Counted from the first letter of the stretch, positions 36,655 through 54,158 are shown. The stretch is 64,000 nt of DNA from Candidatus Uhrbacteria bacterium (GCA_943354605.1 CALRCK010000002.1:71186-135185); one strand, 5' to 3'. Numbers and translations are program-made. The notes: generated by a model from the sequence alone, not told the origin.

Positions 36655-37073
36655 AAGACGGTTCCAACGAGTGAATCTTGTAACGGAAACATAATTGCCG
36701 CGTCCTCCGCCTTCTCGTGATCATGACCAAGAACGTGCAGAATGCCGTGAACAATCAGGTCAACGAGTTCAAGTTCGATGTCTCCTTCTTCCGCCTGGCG
36801 CATCGCTTGATCGAACGAAATCACCACGTCGCCGAGCGTGCCGGTCTGGTCCGCGAAATCGGAGGCGAACGACAGCACGTCGGTCACTGCGTCTTTCTGT
36901 CGATACACGCGATTCAATCTTCGGATCTCTCTGTCGTCCACATACGAAACACCAATCGTGCCCTGAACCGTTGGCAAATGCTCGCCAAAAACCTCAATAA
37001 TCCGATGGTACGTGCCTTCGGGCAATCGCGACGCTTCTGGCACAATGTCGTCTACAACATCAAGGGTAATCAT
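36651..37073 (-). CDS. ybeY: Endoribonuclease YbeY
   Basis: LIVHGILHVLGHDHE metal-binding motif. Confidence 0.9.
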   Translation of the reverse strand: MITLDVVDDIVPEASRLPEGTYHRIIEVFGEHLPTVQGTIGVSYVDDREIRRLNRVYRQKDAVTDVLSFASDFADQTGTLGDVVISFDQAMRQAEEGDIELELVDLIVHGILHVLGHDHEKAEDAAIMFPLQDSLVGTVL

Positions 37074-38041
37074 GGGGTAATGTGAAAGCTGTTCACCATC
37101 ATGGCGAATGTTTGGATGTATGAAATTTCCGTGGAAGCATTCAGACTATACGTCATGGTGTACACCGCCGTTCCAAGATCGAGGTATGCAACAAGATCGT
37201 CTTTACTCCGCAATGTGTAATAGCCTTCTTTGGTATACGACGCCTTCAGGGTGGTAATGTCTGCACCTTTCACATTCTTGAGCACCCAGTCTTCCACGGT
37301 CAGATCTTTTTCCTTTGCACTCCATGTTACTGTCACGGAAGCCAAATTCGGCGTTTTAAACGTAACGACACTTTTTGCTGCATCAATAGACGACTGCCAG
37401 CTGGTTGGGTAATACACGGTAAATGGCAGTGTGGTATCCGAAAACACCTTTACCGCGCCAGTATCGAGCAACGTGCTTGGTGCAAGACCATTCGGGTCAT
37501 ACCGATGAAACACCTCATTGCCATCCAAGAACGTGTCGCCGTCGGAATCCGGATTGCGATAATCGGTTCCATACATCCGTTCCTCAATATCGGTGAGCCC
37601 ATCGCTATCGCTATCCTTCGACTGCGTTGGAGCTGTTGGCGTGGTGGTGGTTGGTTTTGTCGTGGTGGTCGTTGTTGGCGTTGTTGTTGCGGGGAGTGTC
37701 GTGGTGGGTTTTGTGGTGACCACTGTTTGTGCTGGCGTTTTAGTGAGCGTCACATACGCAACAGCTCCAGCACCAAGAAGGACAACAAGGACGAGCACAA
37801 CCCAGAGCGCAATAGGGACACGACGCTTTGGCGGAAGCGGAGTGAGCGGTGGTTTTGGGGCCACTGGCGCAACAATAACCGGAGAAGGAGCAACAGGAGG
37901 AGCGGCCTCAACACGCAATTTCGCTTCCTTCCCTAAAAAATCCTTCGGCATGACGTGAATCACCACGCCCAAATCTTCCGGCTTTGTTTCTGGAGCCTCC
38001 GGAACAACTTGCGCGGTTTTTTTTCCTCCGAAAAGACTCAT
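37070..38041 (-). CDS. Membrane-anchored protein with thrombospondin-type-3-like Ca-binding repeats (paralog 1 of 3)
   Basis: Pro-rich N-terminus, TM helix, Thr-rich linker, DSDSDGLTDIEE...DSDGDTFLDGNE repeats. ATGA overlap with ybeY. Confidence 0.6.
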   Translation of the reverse strand: MSLFGGKKTAQVVPEAPETKPEDLGVVIHVMPKDFLGKEAKLRVEAAPPVAPSPVIVAPVAPKPPLTPLPPKRRVPIALWVVLVLVVLLGAGAVAYVTLTKTPAQTVVTTKPTTTLPATTTPTTTTTTKPTTTTPTAPTQSKDSDSDGLTDIEERMYGTDYRNPDSDGDTFLDGNEVFHRYDPNGLAPSTLLDTGAVKVFSDTTLPFTVYYPTSWQSSIDAAKSVVTFKTPNLASVTVTWSAKEKDLTVEDWVLKNVKGADITTLKASYTKEGYYTLRSKDDLVAYLDLGTAVYTMTYSLNASTEISYIQTFAMMVNSFHITP

Positions 38042-38047
38042 AGACTT

Positions 38048-38767
38048 TTAGCTCCCCTGAGGAACGGTAAACAATTTTCCAGGACCATTCGGATTATATC
38101 CGCCGGAAACCTCTTGTCCGTCTAAATATCCGTCGCCATCCGTATCTGTCTTTCGCGGATCGGTTCCGTACACTTCAACTTCCTCCCGATCCCCAAGCCC
38201 ATCGCCATCGGTATCTGCCTTCGTCACAGATGTGCCAACCTCGAGTTCACGCGCATTTGTTAAACCATCGCCGTCGCTATCAAGAAGCGACGCAGGATTG
38301 GTCGTTTGAACTGGCGCCTGTGTTGTTGGTTCTTCTGGAGCGGTTGTTGCGGCTGGGGCTGTTGTGTTTGACGGTGTTTTTGTTGTGGTCGACGAATCCG
38401 TTGCAACACCAGTGTCTGGAACCGCGTCAACAACACTCCCGTCCGCCGCTGGCTGAACCATGATGCGATATGCGAAAAAACCAGACACACCAAAGATGAC
38501 CAAAATACCTACAACAATAAGAACCATCTTCATACCTCCCCCGCCGCCTCGAGATTCTGGCATCGGCTCCATAGTCGGTGCCGCGCCATACGATGGCGGC
38601 AACCGCGTTGGTGGCGGTGCGATTGGTGGCGGAGCCTGAATCGGCTGTGGTTCTGCTGGCGACGCCATCGGAGCGGGCGCTGGAGCAGCAGCCGGAGCCT
38701 TATCTGTTCCCTCGAATATGTCTTTTGGTTCTTCGTCAAACATACGTGGCTGATTTATTTTGCCCAT
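38048..38767 (-). CDS. Membrane-anchored protein with TSP3-like Ca-binding repeats (paralog 2)
   Basis: From ATG 38767 (MGKINQPRMF...). DSDGDGLTNARELE...DTDGDGLGDREEVE...DTDGDGYLDGQEV. Confidence 0.6.
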   Translation of the reverse strand: MGKINQPRMFDEEPKDIFEGTDKAPAAAPAPAPMASPAEPQPIQAPPPIAPPPTRLPPSYGAAPTMEPMPESRGGGGGMKMVLIVVGILVIFGVSGFFAYRIMVQPAADGSVVDAVPDTGVATDSSTTTKTPSNTTAPAATTAPEEPTTQAPVQTTNPASLLDSDGDGLTNARELEVGTSVTKADTDGDGLGDREEVEVYGTDPRKTDTDGDGYLDGQEVSGGYNPNGPGKLFTVPQGS

Positions 38768-38769
38768 TT

Positions 38770-38872
38770 TCACCTCACTCGTCGAAAACTTCCTCACCGT
38801 ACCAATGAAGTACGCCTCGGAAGATTTTCTCCTCCTTCGGCGAAACTGGTCTAAAATAGATCAGCCACGTTT
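38770..38872 (-). repeat. R1 palindromic element, copy g
   Basis: ...CTTCCTCACCGTACCAATGAAGTACGCCTCGGAAGATTTTCTCC... Confidence 0.55.
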
Positions 38873-38877
38873 TCATA

Positions 38878-39702
38878 TCATTTCAATGGATCGTGACCTG
38901 AGGCGACCTCCTGGCTATCAGTATACCCGTCTCCGTCGGTATCTGCATTCGTGTCCGATGTGCCGAGCTTGTATTCCTCAAGAAGCGACAAACCATCGCT
39001 GTCTTGATCGATGGACAAGAACACATCCTCACAGGTTGCGGCTTGATCACCGCTAAACTGCGCACAACCCGCTGGATTTCCGCTTGCGACCACGGCATCG
39101 AGCTTTCCTTGGAATCCGCAGATTGAATCATTGATTCCGTACTTCGAGCATTCTCCTGCAGCGATCACAACGGAAACCAACTGCGCCTGACAAGTGGCTT
39201 TGGTTGCATCGTCGGTAATCGACGAACACATACTATAATCCTTTGCCTTTGTTGCTGCAGCAAATATTGCTTCATCCTCGCACGTCGACTGATCTAATCC
39301 TGAAAGCTCCGAGCATACGTCTTTATCGCCCGAATCCATCGCAATCAACGTCACACAGTTCGTGAGCTTTTTATCGGCCAACCCGGAGCACACCGACGAC
39401 TGCCCTGTGGTACGTGCCGCATCGGACCTCGCACGATCCTCGCATGCTTTTGGATCCTTGTCTGTCGCACACGACGCAGCAGCATTTTCAATAATGTTCT
39501 TTGCCTGATCCACTTTTGCGACATCAACGTGCGTCAGCGAATACGTTTGATATCCATAATACCCTACAACCCCAACGCCAATGACAATCCCAACCACCGC
39601 CAACATGCGCATGTGGTTCTTTCGTACTTTCCACCACGGCAAAGCCACAGGAGCCTGCTCGTCGAGCGAAAAGTAATTTTGGTTGTTGGGATCGATTGGC
39701 AT
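38878..39702 (-). CDS. Membrane-anchored Cys-rich protein with TSP3-like Ca-binding repeats (paralog 3)
   Basis: TM helix, roughly 18 Cys in the extracellular region, C-terminal DQDSDGLSLLEE...DTDGDGYTDSQEV. Confidence 0.6.
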   Translation of the reverse strand: MPIDPNNQNYFSLDEQAPVALPWWKVRKNHMRMLAVVGIVIGVGVVGYYGYQTYSLTHVDVAKVDQAKNIIENAAASCATDKDPKACEDRARSDAARTTGQSSVCSGLADKKLTNCVTLIAMDSGDKDVCSELSGLDQSTCEDEAIFAAATKAKDYSMCSSITDDATKATCQAQLVSVVIAAGECSKYGINDSICGFQGKLDAVVASGNPAGCAQFSGDQAATCEDVFLSIDQDSDGLSLLEEYKLGTSDTNADTDGDGYTDSQEVASGHDPLK

Positions 39703-39839: not shown

Positions 39840-42800
39840 TCATGGGGCGCAGTAATCGATTCTGACATTACTCACGTTAATGGTGCCATCACCGCGGAAC
39901 GTAATCTGCACCGGAACCTCTGTCTCGTTCGTGCCGTCACACTCGAATCCGCTTGGCCACGGAAGTGTGATGTTGTGTGAATCGTCCACCTGACCTCGGT
40001 CCACCGATACCACACCGTCGGACGATGAAAGCAACACGGCCTGACCTTTGGTGATGGAGTCAATAATCGACGTGTATGCACCGGAAAGCTCAGATGACGT
40101 TGCACCGCTGTAAGAGTAATCAAGAAGGTTATTGTCGTTATAGTCCTCGCTCGAATCTGGATCCGATGTGGATTCATCGATGTCACACGATGACAGCGAC
40201 GACTCGGTTTTTGCACAAATCGTATTTGACGACCAGCGATCCATGCTCGTTTCCAGCGTATCCGTTGACGTCAATGCAAGAGAGTACAACTCTGTTCCGC
40301 TCTGAAGAACCGTCAACACATCAGCATCTGGTTCGTGTCCGGCGGTTGGTTCACCGTCGCTTAACAACACGATAATTCTGTCGGTATTCGCGGCGTATGC
40401 ATCGGTATTCGCGGCGAACAGAGCCATAGCATCCTGCAATCCTTCGTCCGCATACGTTCCGCCTCCAGCGCTATACCCAGCAATTCCTGCCGAACCCGTA
40501 AGAGTCGATTCATCGGACTCATCCAAGAAGACGGGGTTATTAGAACCATCTCTCGTGTCAATCGACGAGGAACTCGAGAAGCTCACAAGTCCGATATGCA
40601 CCTTGCTCCCCAGCTCATCGAACAATGTGCCGATTGCGGTCGTTAAACTTGCCTTTGCGACAACAAGACGCTCGTCGACCGTCGTGTCCGTGTCCGAGTC
40701 TGCGCCAAAGGCGTATCCCATCGATCCAGAGGTGTCCGTCACAAACACCACATACACTTCTGGTGGATTCGCATTACCAAAATCCACATCAGCAACAAGG
40801 TTGCCTGCAACCGTACACGCTGGAACCGTAATCGTTGCGGCATTTGGAAGACTTGCGGTACTTGATGAGTCGTACGAGTAAAGATCGACATCGCTTGTAT
40901 CAGCAGCTCCGGCCTGATTACTTGTGAGAAGAAGATCGATATTCGATGTTGAGGTTGGGCAGGTCGATGCACACGACGCGTCACACACCGGAGGGACCCA
41001 TGTACCCCCGCCATCACAGATCGCACCAGCAATATGAATCTCGCCGTTGTCGGTACCGCCATTGCACATGCCAATCTCGTAACAGTATGTGAGCGAATAT
41101 TGTTCAACACCAGAATCATCGATGTACGTGTGATACTCCGGATTTCCAGAAGCGTCGGTATGCGTTTCGTGCCATTCCTTTCCACTATCAGCAGGATCAC
41201 AGGTTCCTGCGAATGTATAGAGGTCTTCACTGGTGCTCCACCAATAGTACGGAACATCGGCACCGTCGCACACTTCGTCCCCATTCAACACGCCGTCGCC
41301 GCAGAATTCACCGGAAGACGTGGTGTAATAACAGCTCGTCGAACACGCCGTACACGTCGATTCGTAGGCGGAATCACATCCAGCGCCGTTCTCTGTGCCC
41401 TGGTCGCACTCCTCAACACCATCATAGATGTATCCGTCGCCGCAGACGTTCAACGTACAGGCTGTCGTACAATCATCAGTTGCAACGTCGTTGCCGTCGT
41501 CGCATTCTTCGTCACCGTCAACGACGCCGTTGCCACAATACTGGCCATTATAGTTGCAATAATTCCACGAATCCCATCCACACGTGGAGGACGAGTCTCC
41601 GTCGTCGCACGAACGGGTTCGATAGGTTTGATATGTCTGTCCAGCGGAATCACATGTTCCCCCGTTATCGACACAATACGCATGGAGTGCAAGTTCCGCT
41701 ATGAGAAGCGCCCCGCTACTAAACTCAGAGGACACCGACGTCGGCCATGCAGTGATATCGCACGGATATCCATCGTATGTTCCACCATCACAGACATGCG
41801 CTTCTGGACACGCTGCACCAACCCAGGCGCCACACGTTCCGGTTCCGCAATCAGCGCTTGTTGTGCATTCCGTGACACCGTCGCTGCACAGCGATCCGGC
41901 CCACGCATCGTCCGTCCCATCACACGATTCGACAGAGTCCACCACGGTGTCGCCGCAATAACTTGCCGCGCCGGAGCAGTCCCATGCACATGTGGTGTTT
42001 GGGTTTGCGCCGTATGTTCCGTTGCGGCCAATACACGAACCAACGCTTCCACCGTATGGTTTTGAATCCGCAAGCGCCGTCGTTGCATTGGAATCCCCAC
42101 AGTCACAGGCCTCGCCACCAGAAATCACACCGTCTCCGCAAAACGTTGCTGTGGTGTAGTCACAAAGGTCGCCGCAGTATCCATATTCTCCATTCATTGC
42201 GCCATCGTCGCAAGTTTCCGTGCCGTTCACCACACCATCGCCACAAGAATCTGCGCTGCATGTTGCGTCGGCAGCAACGGCGTCGTAGCCCGTACAGGTA
42301 CTGTTGCAATCAGCATTTGCGGTGCCGTCCGTATCGTCGGATGTGCCAGAAACACCATCGGCACCAACATCATACACACAGGCGGCAGCCTGAACATCGC
42401 CAATTTCACATGTTTCCGTAACGCCGCTTGCGTTCACACCAATAATGCCGTCACCACAAGCACTGGATGTGCCGTATACATCGCCGTCGCAGTAGGACGA
42501 CGTGTAGAATGTCACTTCGTCTGTGGTGTCGTCATCAAGGCTGTTCACCCAACTCGATGCCGTGTATTCCAATTCTGTTGCAAGTTCGTAGTCACGAGAA
42601 CCCACCGCACGATAGTGGTACACATACGAACCGTCTGGGCAGGAATAGGAACCGCTCGTTTGGTTCACGCAGGTTGCAGAATCATATCCGGAACATGCCG
42701 CATACGTATTCAACGGATCGGTTGGCAACGAAGTTTCATCCAGCGCGCCGCCAAGCGATTCAGACCACGACGTCCATGCGCTCGATGCAAGTGCACGAAC

Positions 42801-45800
42801 CGCTGTGCCAGACGACAACGTTGGCACCCCGTATGCAGACACCGCAATGGAAACGTCCTTCAAATCGGCAAGACGTTCCGTGTCACGGGTAATCTTGGCC
42901 TTGTCGTCAAGACACGTTTCTCCGGAAGGACAGTCTGCGTCCGCCGTACACGATGTTGATGCTGTCGCGCTACACACCGCGGTATCGGTAACGTTCGTGA
43001 GGAAGTGAATGTTCTCGAGCATCTGGTTGTACACCTCCTGCGTTACCGCCGACGCGCCTTCGTTGTACGAAATCACGAGAATGTTGGAATACAAACCGGA
43101 CGTCGTGGAGTTTGCAATTGCGATATACGTTGAACGATCATCGGTTACTGCCTGGAATCCATCCACTATTGTTTCGCTCGGGCTACCGGTGAAACCCTGA
43201 TCCTCATACCACGCCATTGGACTGAGATACTCTGCGTTGCTCAACAGACGAACACCAATAACATCACCAGCATCGTCCGTAGAAGCGGTGGACGACGTTG
43301 AATCGATCTCAAAAAGATATTCCTTCAGCACTTTGCTGGTTGGCGATGTTGGAGCGAGAACAACATTCACGTCCGGAAGATCGTCAGAGAAATCGTGCAG
43401 GGAGCACGTCTCGGTGTCGGGACAGTCACTGTCCGCATTGCACGAAGTGGTCGTTGTCACGCTACACGACCCAGAATCAGAACCGTAGTCCTTGCAATAC
43501 GCCACCGAGAAGTTCATGTAACCGCCCGGAAGCTCGGAAACGCCCGAATCCCCAGAAGCGTCGTCGGTCCATGGGTACGACGACAATGCTGGCCATGGAT
43601 TCTCACAAAGCAATGCCGTAACATCCGCAGAGCCATCAACAGTAGACGTCACCGTTTCACACGTCTCCGTAGCCGGACAGTCGCTATCGATGGAACAGCT
43701 CTGTGTCGTTGTCACGCTACATGCCTGCGCAGTTGTCGTGGAATCGGTGACTGTCGCCGTTGCAACGACCGTTGAATTACCATTATCGCCAACCGTGACG
43801 ACCGCTGCGGTGTCGAGCGCCGATGAACCACCTTGTGTTGCGGTGAACAGCGTCGTGTCAGCACTCTCCCATCCAGACCACACCCAACTGTACACGCCGT
43901 CGATACTCGTAATTTCTTGTCGAGTGCTGTTATCGTACGAGATTGGCGTCGCGGTAAAAGTGTGAGACTCTCCCGTTGTCGTAAAGGTGTTTGGACTTGT
44001 TTCGTCGGTATCGGTTACGTCCACCGCGTCGAGCGTACAGATATCGGTTCCTGTCGTGAACGTGACCGACTGCGTTCCCGCCATTCCTGCACCAAGCTTC
44101 GACGTGATTCCATCGGTGGTTTCGTCTGTGGTATCGTCATCGCCAACAAATACCAACGTGTAGCTCGAGCTCGCCTCGAGCGCCTGGCTGTAGTTGAGCG
44201 ATACTTTAAACGTTCCATCCCCCATGTCGGTCTGTGTGTACGAATCAATTGGCAAAACACAGTCGCCAGAACCTGCTGCACCCGCAGCTGCAGCAGCCTC
44301 AACATCCTCACCAAGGAAGAACGTGCGAATCGTTTGTATGATTCGCGCAAAGAAGCTCGTCTTTGTCATTGCGAGTTCCGTGTATCCATCTGGACATGCA
44401 TGTGCTCCGTTCAAATTCAATTTCACGTACATGTACGGCGTGGTGGTGGTCACTCCGTCTGTCGTCTCCTCATACGTAAACGATCCCTTGTCCATTTCCT
44501 CAGAAAATACTCCGTTGATTGCGGCGTTGCGGCACACCGACGTCCCAGACGGCGCAGAAGATTCAAGCGTTGGGCGTGGCACGCAGCAATGTGCTACACC
44601 AACACCGGTTGTTGTTGGGTCGGCACAGTCTTGGTCATTTGATGCTGAGCAGGTCAGCGCAAAGTCGGCAGTATCCGAAAGATCCGGCGCCTCTGCAATG
44701 GAGACGGTGACGACACCAATCGCTTCGTTCGTTGTTGGACTCACTTCAAGAACCGCGTCCGACGTCATGTACGCGACCTGCGTTGGATCTTCTCGGCCAT
44801 CACCGGTTACACTTGCGGATTCGCATGCACTGTATTCACCAGTTCCTGCAACGCCATCGCCACACACCGAAGGCGTCGCAAACTCCACGGACGATCCTTC
44901 AAAGGTACAGCTGCTCGTACAGCCTTCCGTTCCGGCCGCAGGGTCGCAATCTTCTCCTGCGCTTGTTGTTGCATCCTGCTCAACCGTTGCATTTCCACAG
45001 CAGTTTGTTGTAACAGTCGTTGTACATTTCGTCAGGCCTTCACGAATACAGATGGAAGAACATCCATCGTTGTTGTCAGTATTTCCGTCGTCGCACGTTT
45101 CATATGGCGCAGTAATTTCGCCGTCTCCACACAAGGCGCCACCCAACGACGCAAGACTCTGTGAGCCTTCTGGCAAACACAATCGCGAGCATCCGTCGCC
45201 GCTTGCATTATTGCCATCGTCGCACAGTTCACCGGCATGCGTTGTAGCGTCGTACACAATGTCGTTGTTGCCGCACGTTGCGCCAACGGACGCCGAACCT
45301 TCTGCTAAACAGGTCGCAGAGCATCCGTCCCCGTCTACAACATTTCCATCGTCACAACTTTCTGCGATATCACTCGAATACGTAACATCGATGACTGAAT
45401 TTCCACAACAATTCGTTTCGACTGTTCCACACGTCGATGCGGCGTATGCACAATCACTATCTGTTGTGCACGCTGTTCCGCTCACCGTACAAAGGGAGGT
45501 GGTGGCGTCGCACGTCTCCTGACACTCGCTGTCCGCGGTACACGTTGCCCCAGTTGAACTGCAGGTAAATGTGCACGCCGAAGACCCTTCCAACAAACAA
45601 CTTGATGAACAGCCATCATGATCCGTGGTGTTGCCGTCGTCGCATTCCTCACCGCTTCCGTCCGTTTCACGGTCAAGTGTTCCATCGCCACACACTGCTT
45701 GATACGGTGAGCTCCCTGCTGGAGTACACGACGACGAACACCCAGCAACAATGGACGACGATCCTCCGTCGAGCAATGCATCGTTTACCGTTTTCCATGC

Positions 45801-48800
45801 TGCCGTATATCCATCCGTTGCAGTATTTTGATCGGAATCTGGAATCGGGTTGGTCCATCCCCATGTATAGTCGGCTCCCGTCAGCTGTTGACCAGAGGTA
45901 GAGCACGAATCCGCGGCGCCGTATGCCTCAACGGTAAAAGCAGAGGTGTCCCCAACCGCCGCAACAACAATGCTCGATGGCAGCAAGGAAATACGTTCCA
46001 CTGCACACGCCGTACCGTCCTCACGAACACGGAATGTCCAAGAATAATCGGATCCGTAATTTGTTCGAATCAACGCCACACCGCTCGTGCTCGTCACATC
46101 TCCGGAAACAATAACGCGATAGTATTCTCCGGCCGTTAATGCTTCCGTTGGGAATTCAAATCCCGTACAACGCGTGGTATCGGTAGGATCGAACGTACAC
46201 GGAGGGTTTGAGTCAACAAATGTGAGGTTCGTGCAGAGCTCGTTCGAGCAATGATCAAGAACGATGTTCCCACCATCTTCAATATCCGTTTGAGTCATCG
46301 CCGTGTTGAACGATGCTGAAATTGCGGCATTTGTACAGGCTTCGGTACAGTCTGGGGCGTAACTCGAGATGTATGGATCGGTGAAGTTCACCGTTAATGT
46401 GGAGTCGTCAGAAACGCTTCCCGCTTCGCTCGCGTTCAACGCCGTTGCAGTCACCGCGGTAACGCCCTCAGCGAAGGCTTCAAGCGTTGCGCATGCTGAA
46501 GGATCTCCAACACATGTGGAGTCTGCTGTCGTATTGAAATCAACATACGAGTGGCTATCAAGCGACCAGCCCCACGTGTAGTCGCTACTATCCACAACGA
46601 CGCATCCCGTACCAGCATTTGCGGAAAAACCTGTCGTAGCATTTTTTTCCGCAAGCGTGTCTTCTGTTGGGGTAACCGTAACACGATCAACAACACACTG
46701 CTCTGACGACGTGGATGTCGTAAACTCCCATGTTACATCGCTCGCCATCGCAATGCTGTCGGTAGACATTGCTGCGGTTGAGATAGTGACTTGATACGTG
46801 GTATCCGTATCAAAATCGGAATCAGGAATCCACGTCACGCGAGAAACGGTGGATCCTGCAACGGTTGCAGTTCCAGAAACCGCTTCTGTCGTGGCACACG
46901 GATCGTCGCTTGGACTGCTCACCGACGCGGTACATTTCACCACCGATAGCGCATCTGAAACAGTCGCCTCGTTCATGAGTTCCGTAAATTCCGCATACAC
47001 CACTGCATTCACACAAATCTCACTTTGTTCGGAATAGCTATTGTTTGGAACCGCGGACACCGTGTCGTCTGAACATTCGGTCACCACACCAGGAACCGCC
47101 ATGATTTCTCCCGTTGAGAAATCCCAAGCGTATGCTCCAGCAACCTCGACCGCAGTCGTCGATTCCACCGCGCCAACGGTCAGGTTCACGGAGTTACTCT
47201 CCACGCCGGCCACCGTTACGGTAACCGGACCAGTCACCGCACCAGTAGGAACCTCAATCTGGATCTCGCTATTGTTCCATGATCCTGCAGTAATACTCGT
47301 CACATCGCTGTAGAACGTTACGGTGTCTGTATCAAGTCCAAAATGGTCACCGGCAATCGTGATACTTCCACCAACGTCTGCACTTGAGGTGATGCTACAA
47401 ATTCCTGGTGTAGGGTCGGCATCGGTTACCGTAAAATCCACCCCGGACGACGCTGTTCCCCCTCGTGGAGTAATGCTCACCGTGTACGCGCCAGCAGAAA
47501 GCGCCGTCCCGTTGTCCAACGTATCTGGAACAATAATAATCACCTCGTCGTCGTCCCAATAATCCGAGCTACATGCAGATGGGAAATCCACGCTTCCCGT
47601 TGCCGTATCGCCCGTAGAGCTCGTGAATGTCACCGTTCCAACGGACGTTCCAAAATTTGAGCCTGTCAATGTGACGTACTGTCCAATACCACCTTCAGAA
47701 GGACTAATGTCCACAATCGTCGCTGTTTCAGACGTTGCCTCAGTAACTTCAAATGCGATGGTATTCGACGCCTCGCCACCAACGGTAACTCCAACATCGT
47801 AGCTTCCGGCAGTCGCCTCTGGCACCGTAACCTTCACCGAGCTATCAGACCACGATGTGTATGATCCGGCTTCGGTCGAGGTAAACGTCACCGTGGACGT
47901 GTCTTGCGTGTCGCCAAAATTTGCACCAGAAAGTGTCAGTGCGGATGTTGACGTTCCTGTAGACTTCGATAGCGAGCACAAACCAGGATGAACAGTGTCG
48001 TTCACGTCGAAATTGGGAATAAGCTCACCAGAATCGTCGTCCGTAGTATCCGAAACATCGTCGGCGTTCGTGAGCGTAATCGGCCCATCGCCTGCACCAT
48101 CTGGAACCGCAACAACCACCTGTGTATCGCTCCATCCATCAGCACAGCTCGTAAGAATCTCTGCTTCAACGGTTCCCGTTCCTGCAGTATCGGTGAAGAG
48201 AATCGTTCCGGTGTTTGCACCAAAATCGGTTCCGGTAATGGTGACATACGTTCCCACCGCGCCGTCTTGCGGCGAAACGTCGGTAATCACGGGATTCGAA
48301 ACACAAACCCCGTCGGTACAGGATCCGCTCGAGCAATCACTATCCTCCGTACAGCTCGAACCATCACAAGCACCGCAATACGTTGTGGCAGTTGAATCGC
48401 CGCCACAATCAATACCCGTTTCGCCGAGATCGGTGTCTTCAACGCCGTTGTAGCACCATTCCGGCCTCGCGCGGACAGAAACCGTGTCGGAATCCTCGTT
48501 GCCAGCAAAATCGGTGACCGTCGCCTTGAATGTGTATCGGGTTCCGCTCACGAAACTCGACGTGTCGATGGTGGTGGAAATCGTTGTGTCTGTGGTGCCA
48601 TCGGCCGAAATGCTGTCTTGCCATTCGTCGTCCACCAAGAAATCTGCAGCCGAAACTCCAGCGTCGTCTGTGGCACCCACCTGAAAATCGGTCGTTGAAT
48701 CTGCGGGAACGGTGGACTCAGGAACCGTAATCGACGCCACCGGGTCCTCAGTATCAACGAGCGAGCCCGATGTAAATGTCGATGTACATGGTGTGGTGGT

Positions 48801-49562
48801 GTCGCACGTGATTGCCGTTCCGCCAGAGCTCAGTAATCCTGTTCCGATCGTCACCGTGAACGTCGCATTCTCATCAAAACAGAATCGATCCGAGTTTGGC
48901 TCCGGACACGCTGCCGCTGGAGTAAACGTGACGTGATTCCCGCTGGTGGTAAATGTTCCCGACACCGCAGTGCCAGACGCATCAGCAATCGTGATATTTG
49001 CATCGACCGCGGTACTATCAACCGTTTTACTAAACGTGATACGTGGGACGATATTGCGAATCGTTACCGATCCATCGGGCGAATATCCTGTTGCGGTAAA
49101 CGACGACGAACTTCCACCGCCTAAACCGTAACCGCTACCGCTACTTCCACTACTACCGCTCCCGCTTCCAGAGCCCGTGGCATTGGTGAGCGAAGAAATG
49201 ATAAATGTCGCGATGCTCCAGGACATCAGGATAATGATCAGTCCAATCACGGCATTGATGAGGATCTTTTTCGCCTTATCCACCTGATCCGGTCGGCCAG
49301 CGGCAGTCATCCATACAAAACCACCGTACACAATGAAACACACCAACACGATGCCGATGACACCAAGTCCTGTACGAATAATGTTTCCGACGATGATCTT
49401 CGGATCCGTCGTGCTCAAACCAGTTTCGTCACCAACAGACGTCAGTGTATCGGTGGTAACGTCTGCGGCCAAAGCAGTCGATGCATGAACGCCGAAAGCC
49501 CCAATGCCCAAAAGAAGGCTGAGGCTTATTGCGGTGCAAAGTTGGGCAATGCGACGTTTCAC
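39840..49562 (-). CDS. Giant (3240 aa) cell-surface protein. N-terminal signal peptide plus a TrbC/VirB2-pilin-like two-helix module, a Gly/Ser linker, IPT/TIG-like domains, at least 7 Myxococcus-type cysteine-rich repeats (CGDG...ECDDGN...DGCS..C), and a C-terminal vWA domain with a DxSxS MIDAS motif.
   Basis: Single uninterrupted ORF with a GTG start at 49562. Repeats and the MIDAS motif (VTDTSGSMG...DRIIVLLSDGEPT) read directly from the translation. IPT-like PVITDVSPQDGAVGTYVTITGTDFG. Confidence 0.85.
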   Translation of the reverse strand: MKRRIAQLCTAISLSLLLGIGAFGVHASTALAADVTTDTLTSVGDETGLSTTDPKIIVGNIIRTGLGVIGIVLVCFIVYGGFVWMTAAGRPDQVDKAKKILINAVIGLIIILMSWSIATFIISSLTNATGSGSGSGSSGSSGSGYGLGGGSSSSFTATGYSPDGSVTIRNIVPRITFSKTVDSTAVDANITIADASGTAVSGTFTTSGNHVTFTPAAACPEPNSDRFCFDENATFTVTIGTGLLSSGGTAITCDTTTPCTSTFTSGSLVDTEDPVASITVPESTVPADSTTDFQVGATDDAGVSAADFLVDDEWQDSISADGTTDTTISTTIDTSSFVSGTRYTFKATVTDFAGNEDSDTVSVRARPEWCYNGVEDTDLGETGIDCGGDSTATTYCGACDGSSCTEDSDCSSGSCTDGVCVSNPVITDVSPQDGAVGTYVTITGTDFGANTGTILFTDTAGTGTVEAEILTSCADGWSDTQVVVAVPDGAGDGPITLTNADDVSDTTDDDSGELIPNFDVNDTVHPGLCSLSKSTGTSTSALTLSGANFGDTQDTSTVTFTSTEAGSYTSWSDSSVKVTVPEATAGSYDVGVTVGGEASNTIAFEVTEATSETATIVDISPSEGGIGQYVTLTGSNFGTSVGTVTFTSSTGDTATGSVDFPSACSSDYWDDDEVIIIVPDTLDNGTALSAGAYTVSITPRGGTASSGVDFTVTDADPTPGICSITSSADVGGSITIAGDHFGLDTDTVTFYSDVTSITAGSWNNSEIQIEVPTGAVTGPVTVTVAGVESNSVNLTVGAVESTTAVEVAGAYAWDFSTGEIMAVPGVVTECSDDTVSAVPNNSYSEQSEICVNAVVYAEFTELMNEATVSDALSVVKCTASVSSPSDDPCATTEAVSGTATVAGSTVSRVTWIPDSDFDTDTTYQVTISTAAMSTDSIAMASDVTWEFTTSTSSEQCVVDRVTVTPTEDTLAEKNATTGFSANAGTGCVVVDSSDYTWGWSLDSHSYVDFNTTADSTCVGDPSACATLEAFAEGVTAVTATALNASEAGSVSDDSTLTVNFTDPYISSYAPDCTEACTNAAISASFNTAMTQTDIEDGGNIVLDHCSNELCTNLTFVDSNPPCTFDPTDTTRCTGFEFPTEALTAGEYYRVIVSGDVTSTSGVALIRTNYGSDYSWTFRVREDGTACAVERISLLPSSIVVAAVGDTSAFTVEAYGAADSCSTSGQQLTGADYTWGWTNPIPDSDQNTATDGYTAAWKTVNDALLDGGSSSIVAGCSSSCTPAGSSPYQAVCGDGTLDRETDGSGEECDDGNTTDHDGCSSSCLLEGSSACTFTCSSTGATCTADSECQETCDATTSLCTVSGTACTTDSDCAYAASTCGTVETNCCGNSVIDVTYSSDIAESCDDGNVVDGDGCSATCLAEGSASVGATCGNNDIVYDATTHAGELCDDGNNASGDGCSRLCLPEGSQSLASLGGALCGDGEITAPYETCDDGNTDNNDGCSSICIREGLTKCTTTVTTNCCGNATVEQDATTSAGEDCDPAAGTEGCTSSCTFEGSSVEFATPSVCGDGVAGTGEYSACESASVTGDGREDPTQVAYMTSDAVLEVSPTTNEAIGVVTVSIAEAPDLSDTADFALTCSASNDQDCADPTTTGVGVAHCCVPRPTLESSAPSGTSVCRNAAINGVFSEEMDKGSFTYEETTDGVTTTTPYMYVKLNLNGAHACPDGYTELAMTKTSFFARIIQTIRTFFLGEDVEAAAAAGAAGSGDCVLPIDSYTQTDMGDGTFKVSLNYSQALEASSSYTLVFVGDDDTTDETTDGITSKLGAGMAGTQSVTFTTGTDICTLDAVDVTDTDETSPNTFTTTGESHTFTATPISYDNSTRQEITSIDGVYSWVWSGWESADTTLFTATQGGSSALDTAAVVTVGDNGNSTVVATATVTDSTTTAQACSVTTTQSCSIDSDCPATETCETVTSTVDGSADVTALLCENPWPALSSYPWTDDASGDSGVSELPGGYMNFSVAYCKDYGSDSGSCSVTTTTSCNADSDCPDTETCSLHDFSDDLPDVNVVLAPTSPTSKVLKEYLFEIDSTSSTASTDDAGDVIGVRLLSNAEYLSPMAWYEDQGFTGSPSETIVDGFQAVTDDRSTYIAIANSTTSGLYSNILVISYNEGASAVTQEVYNQMLENIHFLTNVTDTAVCSATASTSCTADADCPSGETCLDDKAKITRDTERLADLKDVSIAVSAYGVPTLSSGTAVRALASSAWTSWSESLGGALDETSLPTDPLNTYAACSGYDSATCVNQTSGSYSCPDGSYVYHYRAVGSRDYELATELEYTASSWVNSLDDDTTDEVTFYTSSYCDGDVYGTSSACGDGIIGVNASGVTETCEIGDVQAAACVYDVGADGVSGTSDDTDGTANADCNSTCTGYDAVAADATCSADSCGDGVVNGTETCDDGAMNGEYGYCGDLCDYTTATFCGDGVISGGEACDCGDSNATTALADSKPYGGSVGSCIGRNGTYGANPNTTCAWDCSGAASYCGDTVVDSVESCDGTDDAWAGSLCSDGVTECTTSADCGTGTCGAWVGAACPEAHVCDGGTYDGYPCDITAWPTSVSSEFSSGALLIAELALHAYCVDNGGTCDSAGQTYQTYRTRSCDDGDSSSTCGWDSWNYCNYNGQYCGNGVVDGDEECDDGNDVATDDCTTACTLNVCGDGYIYDGVEECDQGTENGAGCDSAYESTCTACSTSCYYTTSSGEFCGDGVLNGDEVCDGADVPYYWWSTSEDLYTFAGTCDPADSGKEWHETHTDASGNPEYHTYIDDSGVEQYSLTYCYEIGMCNGGTDNGEIHIAGAICDGGGTWVPPVCDASCASTCPTSTSNIDLLLTSNQAGAADTSDVDLYSYDSSSTASLPNAATITVPACTVAGNLVADVDFGNANPPEVYVVFVTDTSGSMGYAFGADSDTDTTVDERLVVAKASLTTAIGTLFDELGSKVHIGLVSFSSSSSIDTRDGSNNPVFLDESDESTLTGSAGIAGYSAGGGTYADEGLQDAMALFAANTDAYAANTDRIIVLLSDGEPTAGHEPDADVLTVLQSGTELYSLALTSTDTLETSMDRWSSNTICAKTESSLSSCDIDESTSDPDSSEDYNDNNLLDYSYSGATSSELSGAYTSIIDSITKGQAVLLSSSDGVVSVDRGQVDDSHNITLPWPSGFECDGTNETEVPVQITFRGDGTINVSNVRIDYCAP

Positions 49563-49571
49563 AAAGGTCGG

Positions 49572-51371
49572 TTAGAAAAGCGAACAGGCAGTATCTTGCG
49601 CAACACCATTACAACAAAACGGCGCCGTTGTTGTTGTTCCGCATGAACCGCCTGATGCGTCGGGGCCCTCTCCAGGGACAAAGCAATTTTGATACTCATT
49701 TCGCACGCCTTCGTTTGCTGTCACGCTGTACATGTAGGACAACGGAACCGTTGCATCCGAAGCTAAAAACGTTCCATGGGAAATGGTAACCAGGGTTTTT
49801 GCCGGCACCTGAGAATCCACAAGCACTTCATCGCCCTCAGATGTTAACGATGTTGCGCCGAACGAATACCACATTTCATGACTATCCCCGCTCGTCATTT
49901 CCTTATTCGTCATGACAATGTTGGACGAATTTGCGGTGGATGAATCCAGCAACGAGTCAAAGGTGATTTGTACCGACTGATCAAGATCGACATTCTCTTC
50001 CTCAATGTTTGGTGTGATGCTCTCGATTGCCGGCGCGTCAAGATTGATGTCGTTGGTGGTGGTAAAGCCCCACGTGTAGTCGTCGTCCGTTCCAACGGAT
50101 CCATCGCTATTGCCGTCGAGCGAATTTCCGGAAGTGTCCACAATGCCATCGTATGGGAAAATAGACGCCGTCGGATCTGTTGTGCTGGTTGGCGTCGCTG
50201 AATACACCGTGGCAGTAATCGATTCCCCGCCAGGCAAACAGTATATTGTCTCACCGCACGAATTCGTGCCGCACGCGTCGGTTGATGTGAACGTCACGGT
50301 TTTGTACGAATTGCTGATGACATATTCTCCGGCAACAGGAGCCGTAGACGACGTGCCGACAATTTGGATATTTGAGAATCCGCTGTCGCTCTCACGCGTT
50401 CCCGTGGCTGACGTTGGATCCACCGCTTCGCTAAAAATCGCTTGAACAACAATGTTTCGGTCCTTTGTGGTGCCGTCGGTTGGAATGACGTATTGCACCG
50501 TCGGTGGCGTGATATCAACGGTTGTCCCGGTGGTGAAGTACCAAAGATACCCACCCGAATCGATTGGAGTATCACCATCAGTATTCTTGATGGAATCACT
50601 CAAATATACGGCGTATGTAACGTCTTCTGTCGCCGAACCAAGATACTCGGTTGGATCGAACACAAAGGTCTTGAGGTCATCTGTAAACGTCACCGCAACA
50701 TCGGTGAGCGCCGCCGAGTCACCATCCGCACGAACATAAATCTTTACGTTCTCGCTATTGATTGCCGTGGCCGTTGTGTCGTCGGAAACGTCGCTCGGCG
50801 TACTATTCGTATCGTATCCAGTAATAAACGATGAAATATCCATTGCGTCACGGAAGGTCACAAATATTCGCGTGTTGCGAGAAATGTCTGTTGCGCCACG
50901 AGCGGGATAATGATCACGGATCACTCCAGAGCCCAGAGAATTGGAAAGCGATTCAACCGAAACGCTTCCCGAAGAGCTCCCAGAACCGGATCCACCGGTC
51001 GCATCAGTAAGTAAATTGATAACGAACACGGAAATCGCGTATGCGGACATGGTGATGAGCAAACCAACGACGGCATTGATCAAAATCCCTTTCGCCTTAT
51101 CAACCTTCTTCCCATCACCACCAGCCGTCATCCAAATTGCACCCGCGTAGACCAAGAGAATCAAAAAGACAACACCAAGAATACTCAGGAACACATTGAT
51201 GATGCGGCCGATAATTGTTGTGAGACTGTCGGTGCCCAAACCCGCCGTTGATCCAACCGAAGAAAGATTGCTGTCTGCAGCAAAAACAAGGAGCGGTACT
51301 CCAATGAACGCACCAACCGCGGCAAGCATGGCGCCGCGCTTGAGGACCTTGAGCACAGTGGGAGAAATCAT
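49572..51371 (-). CDS. Surface protein (599 aa) with the same VirB2/TrbC-like N-terminal module as the giant gene, followed by Ig-like domains and a Cys-containing C-terminus
   Basis: ATG 51371 (MISPTVLKVLKRGAMLAAVGAFIG...). The segment ILGVVFLILLVYAGAIWMTAGGDGKKVDKAKGILINAVVGLLI aligns with the giant protein's GVIGIVLVCFIVYGGFVWMTAAGRPDQVDKAKKILINAVIGLII. Only 9 nt separate it from the giant gene. Confidence 0.75.
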   Translation of the reverse strand: MISPTVLKVLKRGAMLAAVGAFIGVPLLVFAADSNLSSVGSTAGLGTDSLTTIIGRIINVFLSILGVVFLILLVYAGAIWMTAGGDGKKVDKAKGILINAVVGLLITMSAYAISVFVINLLTDATGGSGSGSSSGSVSVESLSNSLGSGVIRDHYPARGATDISRNTRIFVTFRDAMDISSFITGYDTNSTPSDVSDDTTATAINSENVKIYVRADGDSAALTDVAVTFTDDLKTFVFDPTEYLGSATEDVTYAVYLSDSIKNTDGDTPIDSGGYLWYFTTGTTVDITPPTVQYVIPTDGTTKDRNIVVQAIFSEAVDPTSATGTRESDSGFSNIQIVGTSSTAPVAGEYVISNSYKTVTFTSTDACGTNSCGETIYCLPGGESITATVYSATPTSTTDPTASIFPYDGIVDTSGNSLDGNSDGSVGTDDDYTWGFTTTNDINLDAPAIESITPNIEEENVDLDQSVQITFDSLLDSSTANSSNIVMTNKEMTSGDSHEMWYSFGATSLTSEGDEVLVDSQVPAKTLVTISHGTFLASDATVPLSYMYSVTANEGVRNEYQNCFVPGEGPDASGGSCGTTTTAPFCCNGVAQDTACSLF

Positions 51372-53530: not shown

Positions 53531-53785
53531 TTAATAGACGTCGTCATGATTCCCCGCTTGTCGGATAACAACGCACTGGTCTTCGAGAGTAAAGATTATG
53601 CGATAGCTCTGTGTTACCGAACAAGAGAAAAACGCCGACAATGAACCGCGAAGTCGATGCGTTCGCAAGGCAGGCTGGAAAGGATCCTGCTCCAGCATAA
53701 AAAGACAATCTGCAATGCGGCCCTGAAGATCTGAAGAGCACCGTTTTACTGATCGTAAAAACCCGGGCATCAAAACGACCTTCAT
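53531..53785 (-). CDS. Type II toxin, RelE/ParE superfamily
   Basis: 84 aa. The C-terminal SYRIIFTLEDQCVVIRQAGNHDDVY matches the ParE/RelE signature (YRxIYxxxDxxxxIxRIGHRxDxY). Confidence 0.6.
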   Translation of the reverse strand: MKVVLMPGFLRSVKRCSSDLQGRIADCLFMLEQDPFQPALRTHRLRGSLSAFFSCSVTQSYRIIFTLEDQCVVIRQAGNHDDVY

Positions 53786-53788
53786 ACA

Positions 53789-54004
53789 TTATCGGACTGT
53801 CTTCAAAAAATCCTCTTTAGAAGTAAACAGAATTGTATGCTCTTTCCCCAAAAGCATGCGCTTTTCATCTCGCGCAATACTCCGAGCAAGCATCCAATCC
53901 CGTATGGTTTGCAACAAAACTCTGAGTAAAACCAAAAATCCTGGCTTGCGAGCAAACCCTGGAGCGTCGGGAGAAGACTCCAAAGAAAATATTTTTGTAT
54001 TCAT
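53789..54004 (-). CDS. Putative cognate antitoxin (family not recognised)
   Basis: 72-aa ORF whose stop lies 3 nt upstream of the toxin ATG. No recognisable RHH/Phd motif. Confidence 0.3.
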   Translation of the reverse strand: MNTKIFSLESSPDAPGFARKPGFLVLLRVLLQTIRDWMLARSIARDEKRMLLGKEHTILFTSKEDFLKTVR

Positions 54005-54158
54005 ACACAAAAAGTATAGCAAGCTCGTAATAAAACGCGAAGAGACCCTCGACCGGCATGCCGATCGAGGGTCTCCGTTGGCCGGCGCTGCGTACGCCTG
54101 CCCGTGCTGTCTACCGACCGAACACCGAACCTTGACTCGAACCGCTGACCGATCCCCG

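What the first reader, a model, noticed from the sequence alone, without database searches (positions are those of the whole stretch)
39840..51371. Two co-oriented genes (599 aa and 3240 aa) sharing a TrbC/VirB2-pilin-like N-terminal module fused to huge adhesin-like ectodomains
Both proteins start with a ~30-aa signal peptide followed by hydrophobic helix - short Gly/charged loop - hydrophobic helix, (V/I)Y(A/G)G(A/F)(I/V)WMTA(G/A)G....VDKAK.ILINAV.GL.I. This closely mimics the fold signature of TrbC/VirB2 conjugative pilins (e.g. RP4 TrbC ...IAIVIAGIMWAFGE...RRLMGLVFGIALA). After a (GS)n linker the small protein carries Ig-like domains. The giant carries IPT/TIG domains, at least 7 Myxococcus cysteine-rich repeats (TIGR02232-like CGDGx..ECDDGNxxxxDGCSxxC), Cys-rich EGF-like segments and a C-terminal vWA/MIDAS domain. 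Only 9 nt separate the genes, three paralogous Ca-binding membrane proteins lie just upstream, and the group sits immediately after the ybeY-dgkA pair. This could be a pilus-like or T4SS-associated surface fibre specialised for cell-cell attachment, with a VirB2-like anchor presenting a giant tip adhesin. That would fit an episymbiotic lifestyle, but it is speculative.
Basis: partly seen in the sequence, partly recalled or inferred. Interest (0 to 1): 0.8.

Follow-up and report, generated by a model that had tools for sequence, protein, structure and literature searches.

The report
Conjugative-pilin modules fused to giant surface fibres
Two neighbouring genes of an uncultivated ultra-small bacterium (Candidatus Uhrbacteria) each join a conjugation-pilus-type pilin module to a large surface domain, one of them a 3,100-residue fibre ending in an adhesion domain; the pair is conserved in hundreds of related genomes and could be how these bacteria attach to other cells.

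Summary
On the minus strand, gene A (49572-51371, 599 aa) and gene B (39840-49562, 3240 aa) lie 9 nt apart. Both start with a Sec signal peptide followed by a two-helix hairpin. The two N-termini are 43% identical (E 3e-26), and both match Pfam PF18895 (T4SS_pilin) above its curated cut-off. A profile of the module aligns to genuine VirB2/TrbC pilins (hhalign 87.8%, E 3e-6), while an ATP-synthase c-subunit control does not. After a Gly/Ser linker, A carries a rod of Ig-like domains. B carries four TIG domains, Big_5 domains, about 12 Cys-rich repeats and a C-terminal vWA domain with a DxSxS MIDAS motif.

The pair is not a one-off. At least 542 species-level genomes encode A, and in 79 of the 80 loci fetched A is followed directly by a pilin-module gene (the 80th contig ends inside A). 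The neighbourhood is always housekeeping: lepB-hisS-rpsU-yqeY-(hflX)-A-B-TSP3.

No T4SS machinery lies in the window or within 10 kb of any locus. Two genomes that carry the pair are listed as VirB4-positive elsewhere.

Best reading: modular VirB2-like pilins that display a surface fibre. Whether they join a pilus or only anchor in the membrane is unresolved. This is a new variant of a known kind.

The parts
49572..51371 (-). Gene A, 599 aa: a modular VirB2-like pilin (signal peptide, pilin hairpin, G/S linker, Ig-like rod, Cys-rich C-terminus)
   Evidence: ORF and translation. PF18895 37.0 bits and Big_5 56.3 bits. The same 599-aa product appears in public gene calls.
51279..51371 (-). A residues 1-31: Sec-type signal peptide, ending VFA|AD
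   Evidence: The sequence shows an n-region with K/R, a hydrophobic stretch at 12-34 and an A-x-A type site. This segment is poorly conserved, 0.27 identity.
50997..51233 (-). A residues 47-125: pilin hairpin (helix, WMTAGGDGKKVDKAK loop, helix)
   Evidence: PF18895 match at residues 47-116. AF2 helices at 50-81 and 87-125. Identity across 74 orthologues is 0.55-0.65.
50949..50996 (-). A residues 126-141: Gly/Ser linker
   Evidence: Sequence. AF2 pLDDT is below 50 for residues 123-138.
49575..50948 (-). A residues 142-599: all-beta ectodomain of tandem Ig-like (Big_5) domains with 8 conserved Cys
   Evidence: Big_5 x3. AF2 pLDDT is mostly above 90 up to about residue 450 and 71-94 beyond. Foldseek matches tandem Ig-like domains of LdtMt2, S-layer SbsC/Sap, cadherins and titin. 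Invariant Cys are listed.
39840..49562 (-). Gene B, 3240 aa: a giant modular VirB2-like pilin
   Evidence: ORF and translation. PF18895, TIG, Big_5, DUF4215 and VWA hits. TIGR02232 hit. Conserved collinearly in 45 full-length orthologues.
49464..49562 (-). B residues 1-33: Sec-type signal peptide, ending ALA|AD
   Evidence: Sequence and hydropathy. Conservation is low, 0.26.
49185..49400 (-). B residues 55-126: pilin hairpin (helix, WMTAAGRPDQVDKAKK loop, helix)
   Evidence: PF18895 match at 67-121, 40.6 bits for the isolated module. AF2 helices at 54-86 and 91-128, pLDDT about 90. hhalign to VirB2/TrbC over residues 51-118. This is the most conserved part of B.
49074..49184 (-). B residues 127-163: Gly/Ser-rich linker
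   Evidence: Sequence.
47163..48296 (-). B residues about 423-800: four IPT/TIG domains
   Evidence: TIG 52 bits with 4 stretches. The best stretches are 531-604 and 723-793.
44883..45698 (-). B residues 1289-1560: first cluster of Cys-rich acidic repeats (TIGR02232/DUF4215)
   Evidence: TIGR02232 94.1 bits, 5 stretches. DUF4215 hits. Regex repeat starts at 1291, 1386, 1430 and 1478 (a fifth start at 1567 lies just beyond this span).
41238..42458 (-). B residues 2369-2775: second cluster of Cys-rich repeats
   Evidence: Regex repeat starts at 2369, 2440, 2475, 2488, 2676, 2707 and 2754. DUF4215 hits in fragments 8 and 9.
40257..40751 (-). B residues 2938-3102: von Willebrand A domain with a DxSxS (DTSGS) MIDAS motif
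   Evidence: VWA 35.2 bits and VWA_2 34 bits on the C-terminal fragment. DxSxS at residue 2943. This is the least conserved part of B.
37070..39702 (-). Three downstream single-pass membrane proteins with Asp-rich Ca-binding (TSP3-type) repeats; conserved neighbours and possible partners
   Evidence: TSP3_bac 29.2 and 54.3 bits for the first two. Sequences. A TSP3a-like gene follows B in most of the loci that extend that far.

Best explanation
A and B are modular VirB2-like pilins of an Uhrbacteria-type Patescibacterium (GTDB class ABY1).

Proposed pathway (inferred): each protein is exported by Sec and its signal peptide is removed at an A-x-A site. The two-helix pilin module then sits in the membrane, with its short Lys-rich loop on the cytoplasmic side. 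The C-terminus points outward, so the Gly/Ser linker and the ectodomain are extracellular.

The ectodomains (domain content shown; rod or fibre shape and tip position inferred): A presents a conserved rod of about 470 aa made of Ig-like domains. B presents a very acidic, disulfide-rich fibre of about 3,100 aa (TIG and Big_5 domains plus Cys-rich repeats), whose far end is a vWA domain with a metal-ion-dependent adhesion site.

Role of the hairpin (inferred): it keeps every hallmark of the small pilins and is the most constrained part of both proteins. It therefore most likely still makes pilin-type contacts, with other pilin modules and/or a T4SS-like assembly machine encoded elsewhere. On this view A and B act as minor or tip subunits that decorate or cap a short pilus-like structure and mediate contact with another cell or surface.
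For: - PF18895 is matched above the curated cut-off in both proteins.
- The modules are 40-57% identical to small pilins and share the family motif YGGFvWMTAxGxExKVxKAKKII..AVIGLIII.
- hhalign against authentic VirB2/TrbC, each flanked by VirB1 and VirB3 genes, gives 87.8% and E 3.3e-6. An AtpE hairpin control gives 0.1%.
- The hairpin is 0.51-0.65 identical across orthologues. Signal-peptide cores are 0.26-0.27, the TM anchor of the neighbouring TSP3 protein is 0.27, and the proteins' own ectodomains are 0.44-0.50.
- In 8 of 80 genomes a canonical small pilin gene lies between A and B.
- A related small pilin (P0043, 43% identical over the matched region) lies in a Saccharibacteria array next to VirB4, TraC-like and PrgI genes.
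- Two genomes that carry the pair (L020, L080) are listed as VirB4-positive in PMC12102498 Table S1.
- Small pilin arrays are essential in S. epibionticum (PMC10633639).
- The vWA domain with DxSxS is the least conserved region of B, as expected for a ligand-binding tip.
- There is a design precedent: modular type IV pilins with a vWA module polymerise through their pilin module (PMC8179133).
Against: - No VirB4, PrgI, TraC-like or small-pilin gene lies in the 64 kb window, and none lies within 10 kb of the pair in 80 genomes.
- The locus always sits among housekeeping genes.
- No PF18895 pilus has yet been seen in any Patescibacterium.
- Ectodomains of 470 and 3,100 residues cannot be on every subunit of a tightly packed helical fibre.
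- End-to-end conservation of A and B looks more like a core structural component than a host-specific adhesin.
- The window proteins do not hit PF04956 directly.
- Fold searches are uninformative.
Confidence: 0.5

Rival explanations
1. Co-opted anchor. The pilin hairpin serves only as a stable two-helix membrane anchor, possibly an A-B heterodimerisation device. A and B are cell-bound surface fibrils that need no T4SS and form no pilus.
For: - The pair is never next to T4SS genes. It lies in a fixed housekeeping neighbourhood in all 80 genomes examined.
- 71 of the 80 loci have no small pilin within 10 kb.
- The ectodomains are too large for regular pilus packing.
- Some Uhrbacteria assemblies are listed as lacking VirB4, although those MAGs may be incomplete and were not shown to carry A-B.
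Against: - The hairpin is about twice as conserved as passive hydrophobic segments in the same loci, and more conserved than the ectodomains. The loop motif of the small pilins is retained almost unchanged.
- A passive anchor would not need this.
- A small pilin is inserted between A and B in one subclade.
Confidence: 0.3
2. Envelope scaffold. A, B and the downstream Ca-binding TSP3 membrane proteins form a conserved structural layer or spacer of the cell envelope (S-layer-like or wall-spanning), not an adhesin.
For: - Conservation is collinear end to end across class-level divergence.
- Foldseek matches for A include the S-layer proteins SbsC, Sap and EA1.
- The ectodomains are extremely acidic, with net charges of -403 and -49, and TSP3 proteins are conserved neighbours.
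- The flanking genes are cell-division and envelope genes (ftsA, ftsZ, lytR).
Against: - A distal vWA domain with an intact DxSxS motif, more variable than the rest of B, points to ligand binding.
- The Foldseek matches reflect generic tandem Ig folds.
- The single A-B gene pair gives no evidence of the high copy number or lattice-forming domains expected for a layer.
Confidence: 0.15

Closest known systems
VirB2-like pilin arrays of Patescibacteria (Pfam PF18895 T4SS_pilin; Wang et al. 2023, PMC10633639; Quinonero-Coronel et al. 2025, PMC12102498)
   Same: Same N-terminal module: signal peptide, two helices and a WMTAxG...KAK loop. The modules are 40-57% identical to small array pilins, and the genes are in tandem and co-oriented.
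   Different: The described pilins are about 100-190 aa and lie in arrays of 2-11, often near virB4. Here the module carries ectodomains of 470 and 3,100 aa, and the pair sits in a fixed housekeeping locus without T4SS genes. The 2025 survey reported that no adhesins such as PrgB were detected.
TrbC/VirB2 conjugative pilins of Gram-negative T4SS (Pfam PF04956)
   Same: Long Sec signal peptide with an A-x-A|Q-type site, then two hydrophobic helices with a short loop. The profile-profile match spans both helices. Some A orthologues carry precomputed PF04956 hits.
   Different: The window proteins have no direct PF04956 hit. VirB2 proteins are small, sometimes cyclised (my own knowledge), and encoded between virB1 and virB3. 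None carries an ectodomain.
Modular type IV pilins (Streptococcus sanguinis PilB = pilin + vWA, PilC = pilin + lectin; PMC8179133)
   Same: Same design logic: an N-terminal polymerisation module, a short linker and an adhesive module that includes a vWA/MIDAS domain. These pilins are proposed to sit at the pilus tip.
   Different: The pilin fold and assembly system are unrelated. Type IV pilins use a class III signal peptide, a prepilin peptidase and a single N-terminal helix. A and B have Sec-type signal peptides and a two-helix hairpin.
Giant bacterial adhesins (SiiE, LapA/MpIBP type) and vWA tip adhesins of sortase pili (RrgA)
   Same: Long rods of Ig-like domains, acidic and probably Ca-dependent, with a distal ligand-binding domain.
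   Different: The anchoring differs. Those proteins use a T1SS retention module or LPXTG/sortase linkage, not a pilin hairpin. This comparison rests on my own knowledge and on PMC8179133, not on a test made here.
Mbov_0395 family pilin-like conjugal transfer protein of Mycoplasma ICEs (NCBIfam NF045849)
   Same: Both modules give sub-threshold matches over the full model (22.3 and 31.1 bits). This links the module to monoderm conjugation systems.
   Different: The matches are below the 40-bit cut-off, and those proteins are small, about 80 aa.

Membership tests
PF18895 T4SS_pilin (VirB2-like pilins of Patescibacteria and monoderms) | HMM score at or above the Pfam gathering score (26.6 bits) | tested here: met
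   A scores 37.0 bits and B 36.4 bits. The isolated modules score 40.3 and 40.6 bits.
PF18895 T4SS_pilin | Sec signal peptide followed by two hydrophobic helices joined by a short charged loop carrying the family motif | tested here: met
   Sequence and hydropathy. AF2 hairpins. Alignment with 40 small pilins shows invariant Gly81, Gly89 and Gly107.
PF18895 T4SS_pilin | Small protein (about 100-190 aa) with nothing after the second helix | tested here: not met
   A is 599 aa and B 3240 aa, with large C-terminal ectodomains.
PF18895 T4SS_pilin | Encoded in a pilin array and/or next to T4SS genes (VirB4, PrgI/VirB3, VirB6) | tested here: not met
   Only A and B carry the module in the 64 kb window. 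tblastn with a Saccharibacteria VirB4, TraC-like protein and PrgI found nothing in the window or in the other fetched loci, including all 80 A-B loci. The rest of the source genome could not be read.
PF18895 T4SS_pilin | Polymerises into an extracellular pilus | not testable with these tools
   This has not been shown for any member of the family either (PMC12857230).
PF04956 TrbC/VirB2 | Direct HMM match | tested here: not met
   No PF04956 hit at E <= 0.1 for A, B or their isolated modules. Several A orthologues do carry precomputed PF04956 hits.
PF04956 TrbC/VirB2 | Remote homology by profile-profile comparison | tested here: inconclusive
   hhalign of A1 against 7 authentic VirB2/TrbC gives Prob 87.8% and E 3.3e-6 over both helices. 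The AtpE control gives 0.1%. The PDB profile search found VirB2 (8cue) only at E 4.9. Transmembrane composition can inflate such scores.
PF04956 TrbC/VirB2 | Structural similarity to solved VirB2 or TraA pilins | tested here: inconclusive
Type IV pilins (modular type IV pilins) | Class III signal peptide (short leader, then G|F/M-T-L-x-E) cut by a prepilin peptidase | tested here: not met
   Both leaders are about 31-33 aa, Sec-type, and end in A-x-A. No G-F-T-L-x-E motif is present.
von Willebrand factor A domain (PF00092/PF13519) | HMM above cut-off and a DxSxS MIDAS motif | tested here: met
   VWA scores 29.4 and 35.2 bits against 23.8, and VWA_2 30.2 and 34 bits against 27. DTSGS lies at 2943-2947. 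Candidate Thr and Asp MIDAS residues can be picked out by eye only. Metal binding was not tested.
Myxococcus cysteine-rich repeat (TIGR02232) / DUF4215 | Repeat HMM above cut-off | tested here: met
   TIGR02232 scores 94.1 bits against 20.8, with 5 stretches. DUF4215 scores 38.5 bits against 27. The regex finds 12 repeat starts.
IPT/TIG (PF01833) and Big_5 (PF13205) | HMM above cut-off | tested here: met
   TIG scores 52 bits with 4 stretches. Big_5 scores 37.5 bits in B and 56.3 bits in A.

The most novel reading that the evidence does not exclude
A and B would be the first recognised modular conjugative-type (VirB2-like) pilins: a class-wide, vertically inherited pair in which the T4SS pilin fold carries an Ig-rod adaptor and a roughly 100-nm (rough estimate, not computed), vWA-tipped fibre. 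On this reading they are the so-far missing adhesin of the Patescibacteria T4SS-like apparatus. The pilin module would be extracted from the membrane pool and placed at the tip or base of a short pilus built from small pilins, coupling host contact directly to the essential secretion or uptake machine.
Probability: 0.35. Interest if true: 0.8.

Novelty: new variant of a known kind. Interest (0 to 1): 0.62.

Why it matters
Patescibacteria make up a large share of uncultivated bacterial diversity, and the cultivated members live attached to other cells. Their T4SS-like system and its VirB2-like pilins are essential in the one genetically tractable species. Nobody knows whether a pilus is made or what contacts the host, and a 2025 survey found no adhesin linked to the system.

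This locus offers a concrete, deeply conserved candidate: pilin modules covalently joined to adhesin-like ectodomains. It gives defined targets for antibodies, for cryo-ET density assignment, for metaproteomics and for recombinant vWA binding assays in class ABY1.

The finding matters even if the pilus link fails. It would then show the conjugative-pilin fold reused as a dedicated anchor for giant surface proteins in monoderm ultra-small bacteria, a display mechanism distinct from sortase/LPXTG anchoring, T1SS retention modules and type IV modular pilins.

Tried and rejected
2. PDB profile search. The top hits were designer 'Pizza' beta-propellers matched through a repeated 18-residue motif, which is spurious. 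VirB2 (8cue) scored only E 4.9.
3. Looking for VirB4 on the contigs that carry A-B. I matched contig lengths in a VirB4 homologue search. This failed because the only VirB4 I could obtain (L095) is from Saccharibacteria, and all 120 listed hits were close relatives of it (87-100% identical; those with a source name are Saccharibacteria/TM7).
4. Walking off the window ends by exact-protein look-up. The two end proteins I tried are not on record.
5. Large ORFs (872-1851 aa) inserted just upstream of A in some genomes. They begin with signal peptides and look like further surface proteins, not T4SS parts.
6. Type IV pilin identity. Rejected, because there is no class III signal peptide.
7. 'EGF-like' segments. 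They drew no Pfam support.
8. Chance similarity or a generic signal-anchor hairpin. Rejected by the family HMM score, the 40-57% identity to small pilins, the negative control and the conservation analysis.
9. Literature searches for pilin modules fused to adhesins in Patescibacteria. They found no description.


Full report
**1. Observation**

The region holds two co-oriented genes on the minus strand. Gene A is 49572-51371 (599 aa from ATG) and gene B is 39840-49562 (3240 aa, GTG start). They are separated by 9 nt. Public gene calls on an independent assembly give the same 599 and 3240 aa products.

The first 160 residues of the two proteins align at 43% identity over 115 residues, E 3e-26. 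Both begin the same way:
- a Sec-type signal peptide, ending VFA|AD in A and ALA|AD in B;
- two hydrophobic helices joined by the loop WMTA(G/A)G...VDKAK;
- a Gly/Ser linker.

The corrections concern the surroundings. Because the genes are on the minus strand, the three Asp-rich membrane proteins (37070-39702) and ybeY-dgkA lie downstream of B, and hflX lies upstream of A. A strong terminator-like hairpin follows rpsU. None separates yqeY, hflX, A and B, so co-transcription is possible but not shown.

**2. What the N-terminal module is**

- Both proteins match Pfam PF18895 (T4SS_pilin) above the gathering score: 37.0 and 36.4 bits against 26.6, and 40 bits for the isolated modules.
- They give sub-threshold matches to the Mycoplasma ICE pilin-like family NF045849.
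- A database search with the B module returned 51 proteins. Almost all are small (90-280 aa) PF18895 proteins of Patescibacteria, 31-57% identical, and they share the motif YGGFvWMTAxGxExKVxKAKKII..AVIGLIII with three invariant glycines.
- AlphaFold models give a confident helical hairpin, pLDDT about 90.
- I therefore tested remote homology by profiles. I fetched seven authentic VirB2/TrbC genes from MPF_T conjugative plasmids, each lying between a VirB1-type (or other type IV secretion) gene and a virB3 gene. hhalign of the Patescibacteria module profile against them gives 87.8% probability and E 3.3e-6 across both helices.
- The E. coli ATP-synthase c subunit, another two-helix membrane hairpin, gives 0.1%.
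- The window proteins do not hit PF04956 directly, although several A orthologues do in precomputed annotations.

Conclusion: the module is a genuine member of the VirB2-like pilin family of monoderms and Patescibacteria. It is probably, but not certainly, homologous to classical VirB2.

**3. The ectodomains**

*Protein A.* It carries three Big_5 matches. Its AlphaFold model has mean pLDDT 83.9, mostly above 90 in the ectodomain up to about residue 450 and 71-94 beyond. The model is a disordered linker followed by an all-beta rod. The best structural matches are tandem Ig-like domains: LdtMt2, the S-layer proteins SbsC, Sap and EA1, cadherins and titin. No enzyme fold is present.

*Protein B.* In order along the chain it contains:
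- Big_5 and Big_7-like domains;
- four TIG domains, at about residues 423-800;
- two more Big_5 domains;
- Cys-rich TIGR02232/DUF4215 repeats, with 12 CG[DN][GNS] starts in two clusters, 1291-1567 and 2369-2763;
- about 800 residues with no Pfam match;
- a C-terminal vWA domain (2938-3102) carrying the DTSGS (DxSxS) motif at residue 2943.

B has 150 cysteines. Its ectodomain has a net charge of -403, and that of A is -49.

**4. Distribution and context**

- A full-length search with A found at least 542 proteins. The best 120 are all about 570-630 aa and 51-100% identical, and all but three are annotated with both PF13205 and PF18895. NCBI names them 'pilin' or 'Ig-like domain-containing protein'.
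The titles are mostly Candidatus Uhrbacteria, plus Magasanikbacteria and Komeilibacteria. The T4SS survey places the Uhrbacteria and Magasanikbacteria genomes it covers in GTDB class ABY1.
- In 79 of the 80 loci fetched, A is followed directly by a gene that starts with a pilin module, or by a small pilin and then such a gene. This gene is 2,800-3,500 aa wherever the contig does not cut it short. The one exception (L058) is a 2.2-kb contig that ends within A.
- The gene order lepB-hisS-rpsU-yqeY-(hflX)-A-B-TSP3 protein recurs throughout.
- B is conserved collinearly from end to end in 45 full-length orthologues. The hairpin is the most conserved part (0.62 identity). The vWA region is among the least conserved (0.22-0.40 identity, 65-79% aligned).
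- In 8 loci a canonical small pilin (ORFs of 124-190 aa) lies between A and B.

**5. Link to a T4SS**

*Against a local link.* Nothing in the 64 kb window resembles T4SS machinery, and only A and B carry the pilin module there. tblastn with a Saccharibacteria VirB4, TraC-like protein, PrgI and a neighbouring 1009-aa protein found nothing in the window or in any A-B locus.

*Context of the related small pilins.* They lie in tandem arrays of 5-9 genes.
- In a Saccharibacteria contig the array sits beside VirB4, TraC-like and PrgI genes.
- In four other contigs, one of them titled Falkowbacteria, no VirB4 lies within 10 kb.

*From the literature.*
- PF18895 pilins are widespread in Patescibacteria. 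They occur in arrays of 2-11 and lie near virB4 in about 58% of assemblies that have both (PMC12102498).
- The arrays are essential in S. epibionticum (PMC10633639).
- A pilus has not yet been observed (PMC12857230).
- Table S1 of PMC12102498 lists two genomes that carry A-B as VirB4-positive: Magasanikbacteria RIFOXYD1_FULL_40_23 (L080) and Uhrbacteria CG_4_10_14_3_um_filter_41_21 (L020).

I could not read the rest of the window's own genome.

**6. Is the hairpin a passive anchor?**

Across orthologues the two helices and the loop are 0.51-0.65 identical. The signal-peptide hydrophobic cores are 0.26-0.27. The single TM anchor of the neighbouring TSP3 protein is 0.27. The ectodomains of A and B are 0.44-0.50. 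A segment that only had to be hydrophobic would not be the most constrained part of a 3,240-aa protein. This argues for specific contacts, either pilin-pilin, pilin-machine or A-B, but it does not say which.

**7. Mechanism**

*Shown:*
- the composition and order of the parts;
- family membership of the module;
- the deep conservation and fixed context of the pair;
- the absence of nearby T4SS genes.

*Inferred:*
- the topology, with the loop in the cytoplasm by the positive-inside rule and the C-terminus outside. This matches what is known for VirB2-type pilins (my own knowledge);
- surface display of an Ig-like rod (A) and of a long, acidic, disulfide-rich fibre with a vWA tip (B);
- incorporation of the modules as minor or tip subunits of a pilus-like assembly.

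The closest functional analogy is the modular type IV pilin PilB of S. sanguinis. There a pilin module carries a vWA adhesin and is modelled at the pilus tip (PMC8179133). That system is unrelated in fold and in assembly.

*Rivals.* One is a co-opted membrane anchor that needs no T4SS. The other is a conserved envelope scaffold built together with the TSP3 proteins.

**8. Novelty**

The module family, its abundance in Patescibacteria and its tandem arrays are known. The fusion proteins sit in public databases under generic names. I found no paper that describes VirB2-like pilin modules fused to large ectodomains, or this conserved A-B locus. The dedicated T4SS survey reported that no adhesins such as PrgB were detected. 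I therefore rate it a new variant of a known kind, with moderate to high interest.

Noticed in passing
window 12242-17900 and 54000-55700: Two GC-rich islands (63-66% against about 52% elsewhere) encode minus-strand secreted Cys/Asp-rich proteins with PF11617 Cu-binding_MopE repeats: 12242-14425 (727 aa, 9 repeats) and 54159-55607 (482 aa, 4 repeats). Three more secreted ORFs without a Pfam match lie at 14.5-17.9 kb. The second island interrupts the hisS-rpsU synteny that is otherwise conserved, so it may be horizontally acquired.
   Followed up: partly
protein ids P0172-P0321: The PF18895-like superfamily is very large: 94,421 clusters at 50% identity with E <= 1e-3. The top-scoring members are 'poly-pilins' with 2-17 tandem pilin modules in one ORF, for example P0189 (1775 aa, 17 modules).
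   Followed up: no
L085 7856-9418, L086 7128-8705: Small-pilin arrays of 6-8 genes are flanked by a divergently oriented, conserved polytopic membrane protein of about 520 aa. It has no Pfam family and is 37% identical between the two loci. It may be an array-associated processing or glycosylation factor. The window has no homologue.
   Followed up: partly
L094 5450-6838, L096 3531-4907: In two other small-pilin arrays the first pilin gene directly follows an SBP_bac_1 solute-binding protein gene.
   Followed up: no
L049, L052, L062, L067, L068, L069, L072, L077 (between A and B): One subclade has a canonical small PF18895 pilin gene (ORFs of 124-190 aa) inserted between the A and B genes.
   Followed up: yes
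L032, L033, L037, L040, L044, L047 (just upstream of A): Extra large secreted proteins (872-1851 aa, each with a signal peptide) are inserted between yqeY and A in L032, L033, L040, L044 and L047, and directly upstream of A in L037. This suggests the site is a hot spot for surface-protein genes.
   Followed up: partly
record titles (e.g. L008, L012, L013): Many third-party MAG records that carry this Patescibacteria locus are titled 'uncultured Gammaproteobacteria bacterium'. These titles appear to be mislabelled.
   Followed up: no
window 53531-53785 (-), 23348-23746 (+), 26602-28641 (+): A RelE/YafQ-like toxin ORF lies between rpsU and the GC-rich island. There is also a tmRNA gene (89.9 bits) and two adjacent PF13354 beta-lactamase-like paralogues.
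   Followed up: no
window 57232-57969 (-): Signal peptidase I (lepB) is part of the conserved lepB-hisS-rpsU-yqeY-(hflX)-A-B gene order. Both A and B have signal peptidase I type cleavage sites. The proximity is probably a coincidence of housekeeping synteny.
   Followed up: no
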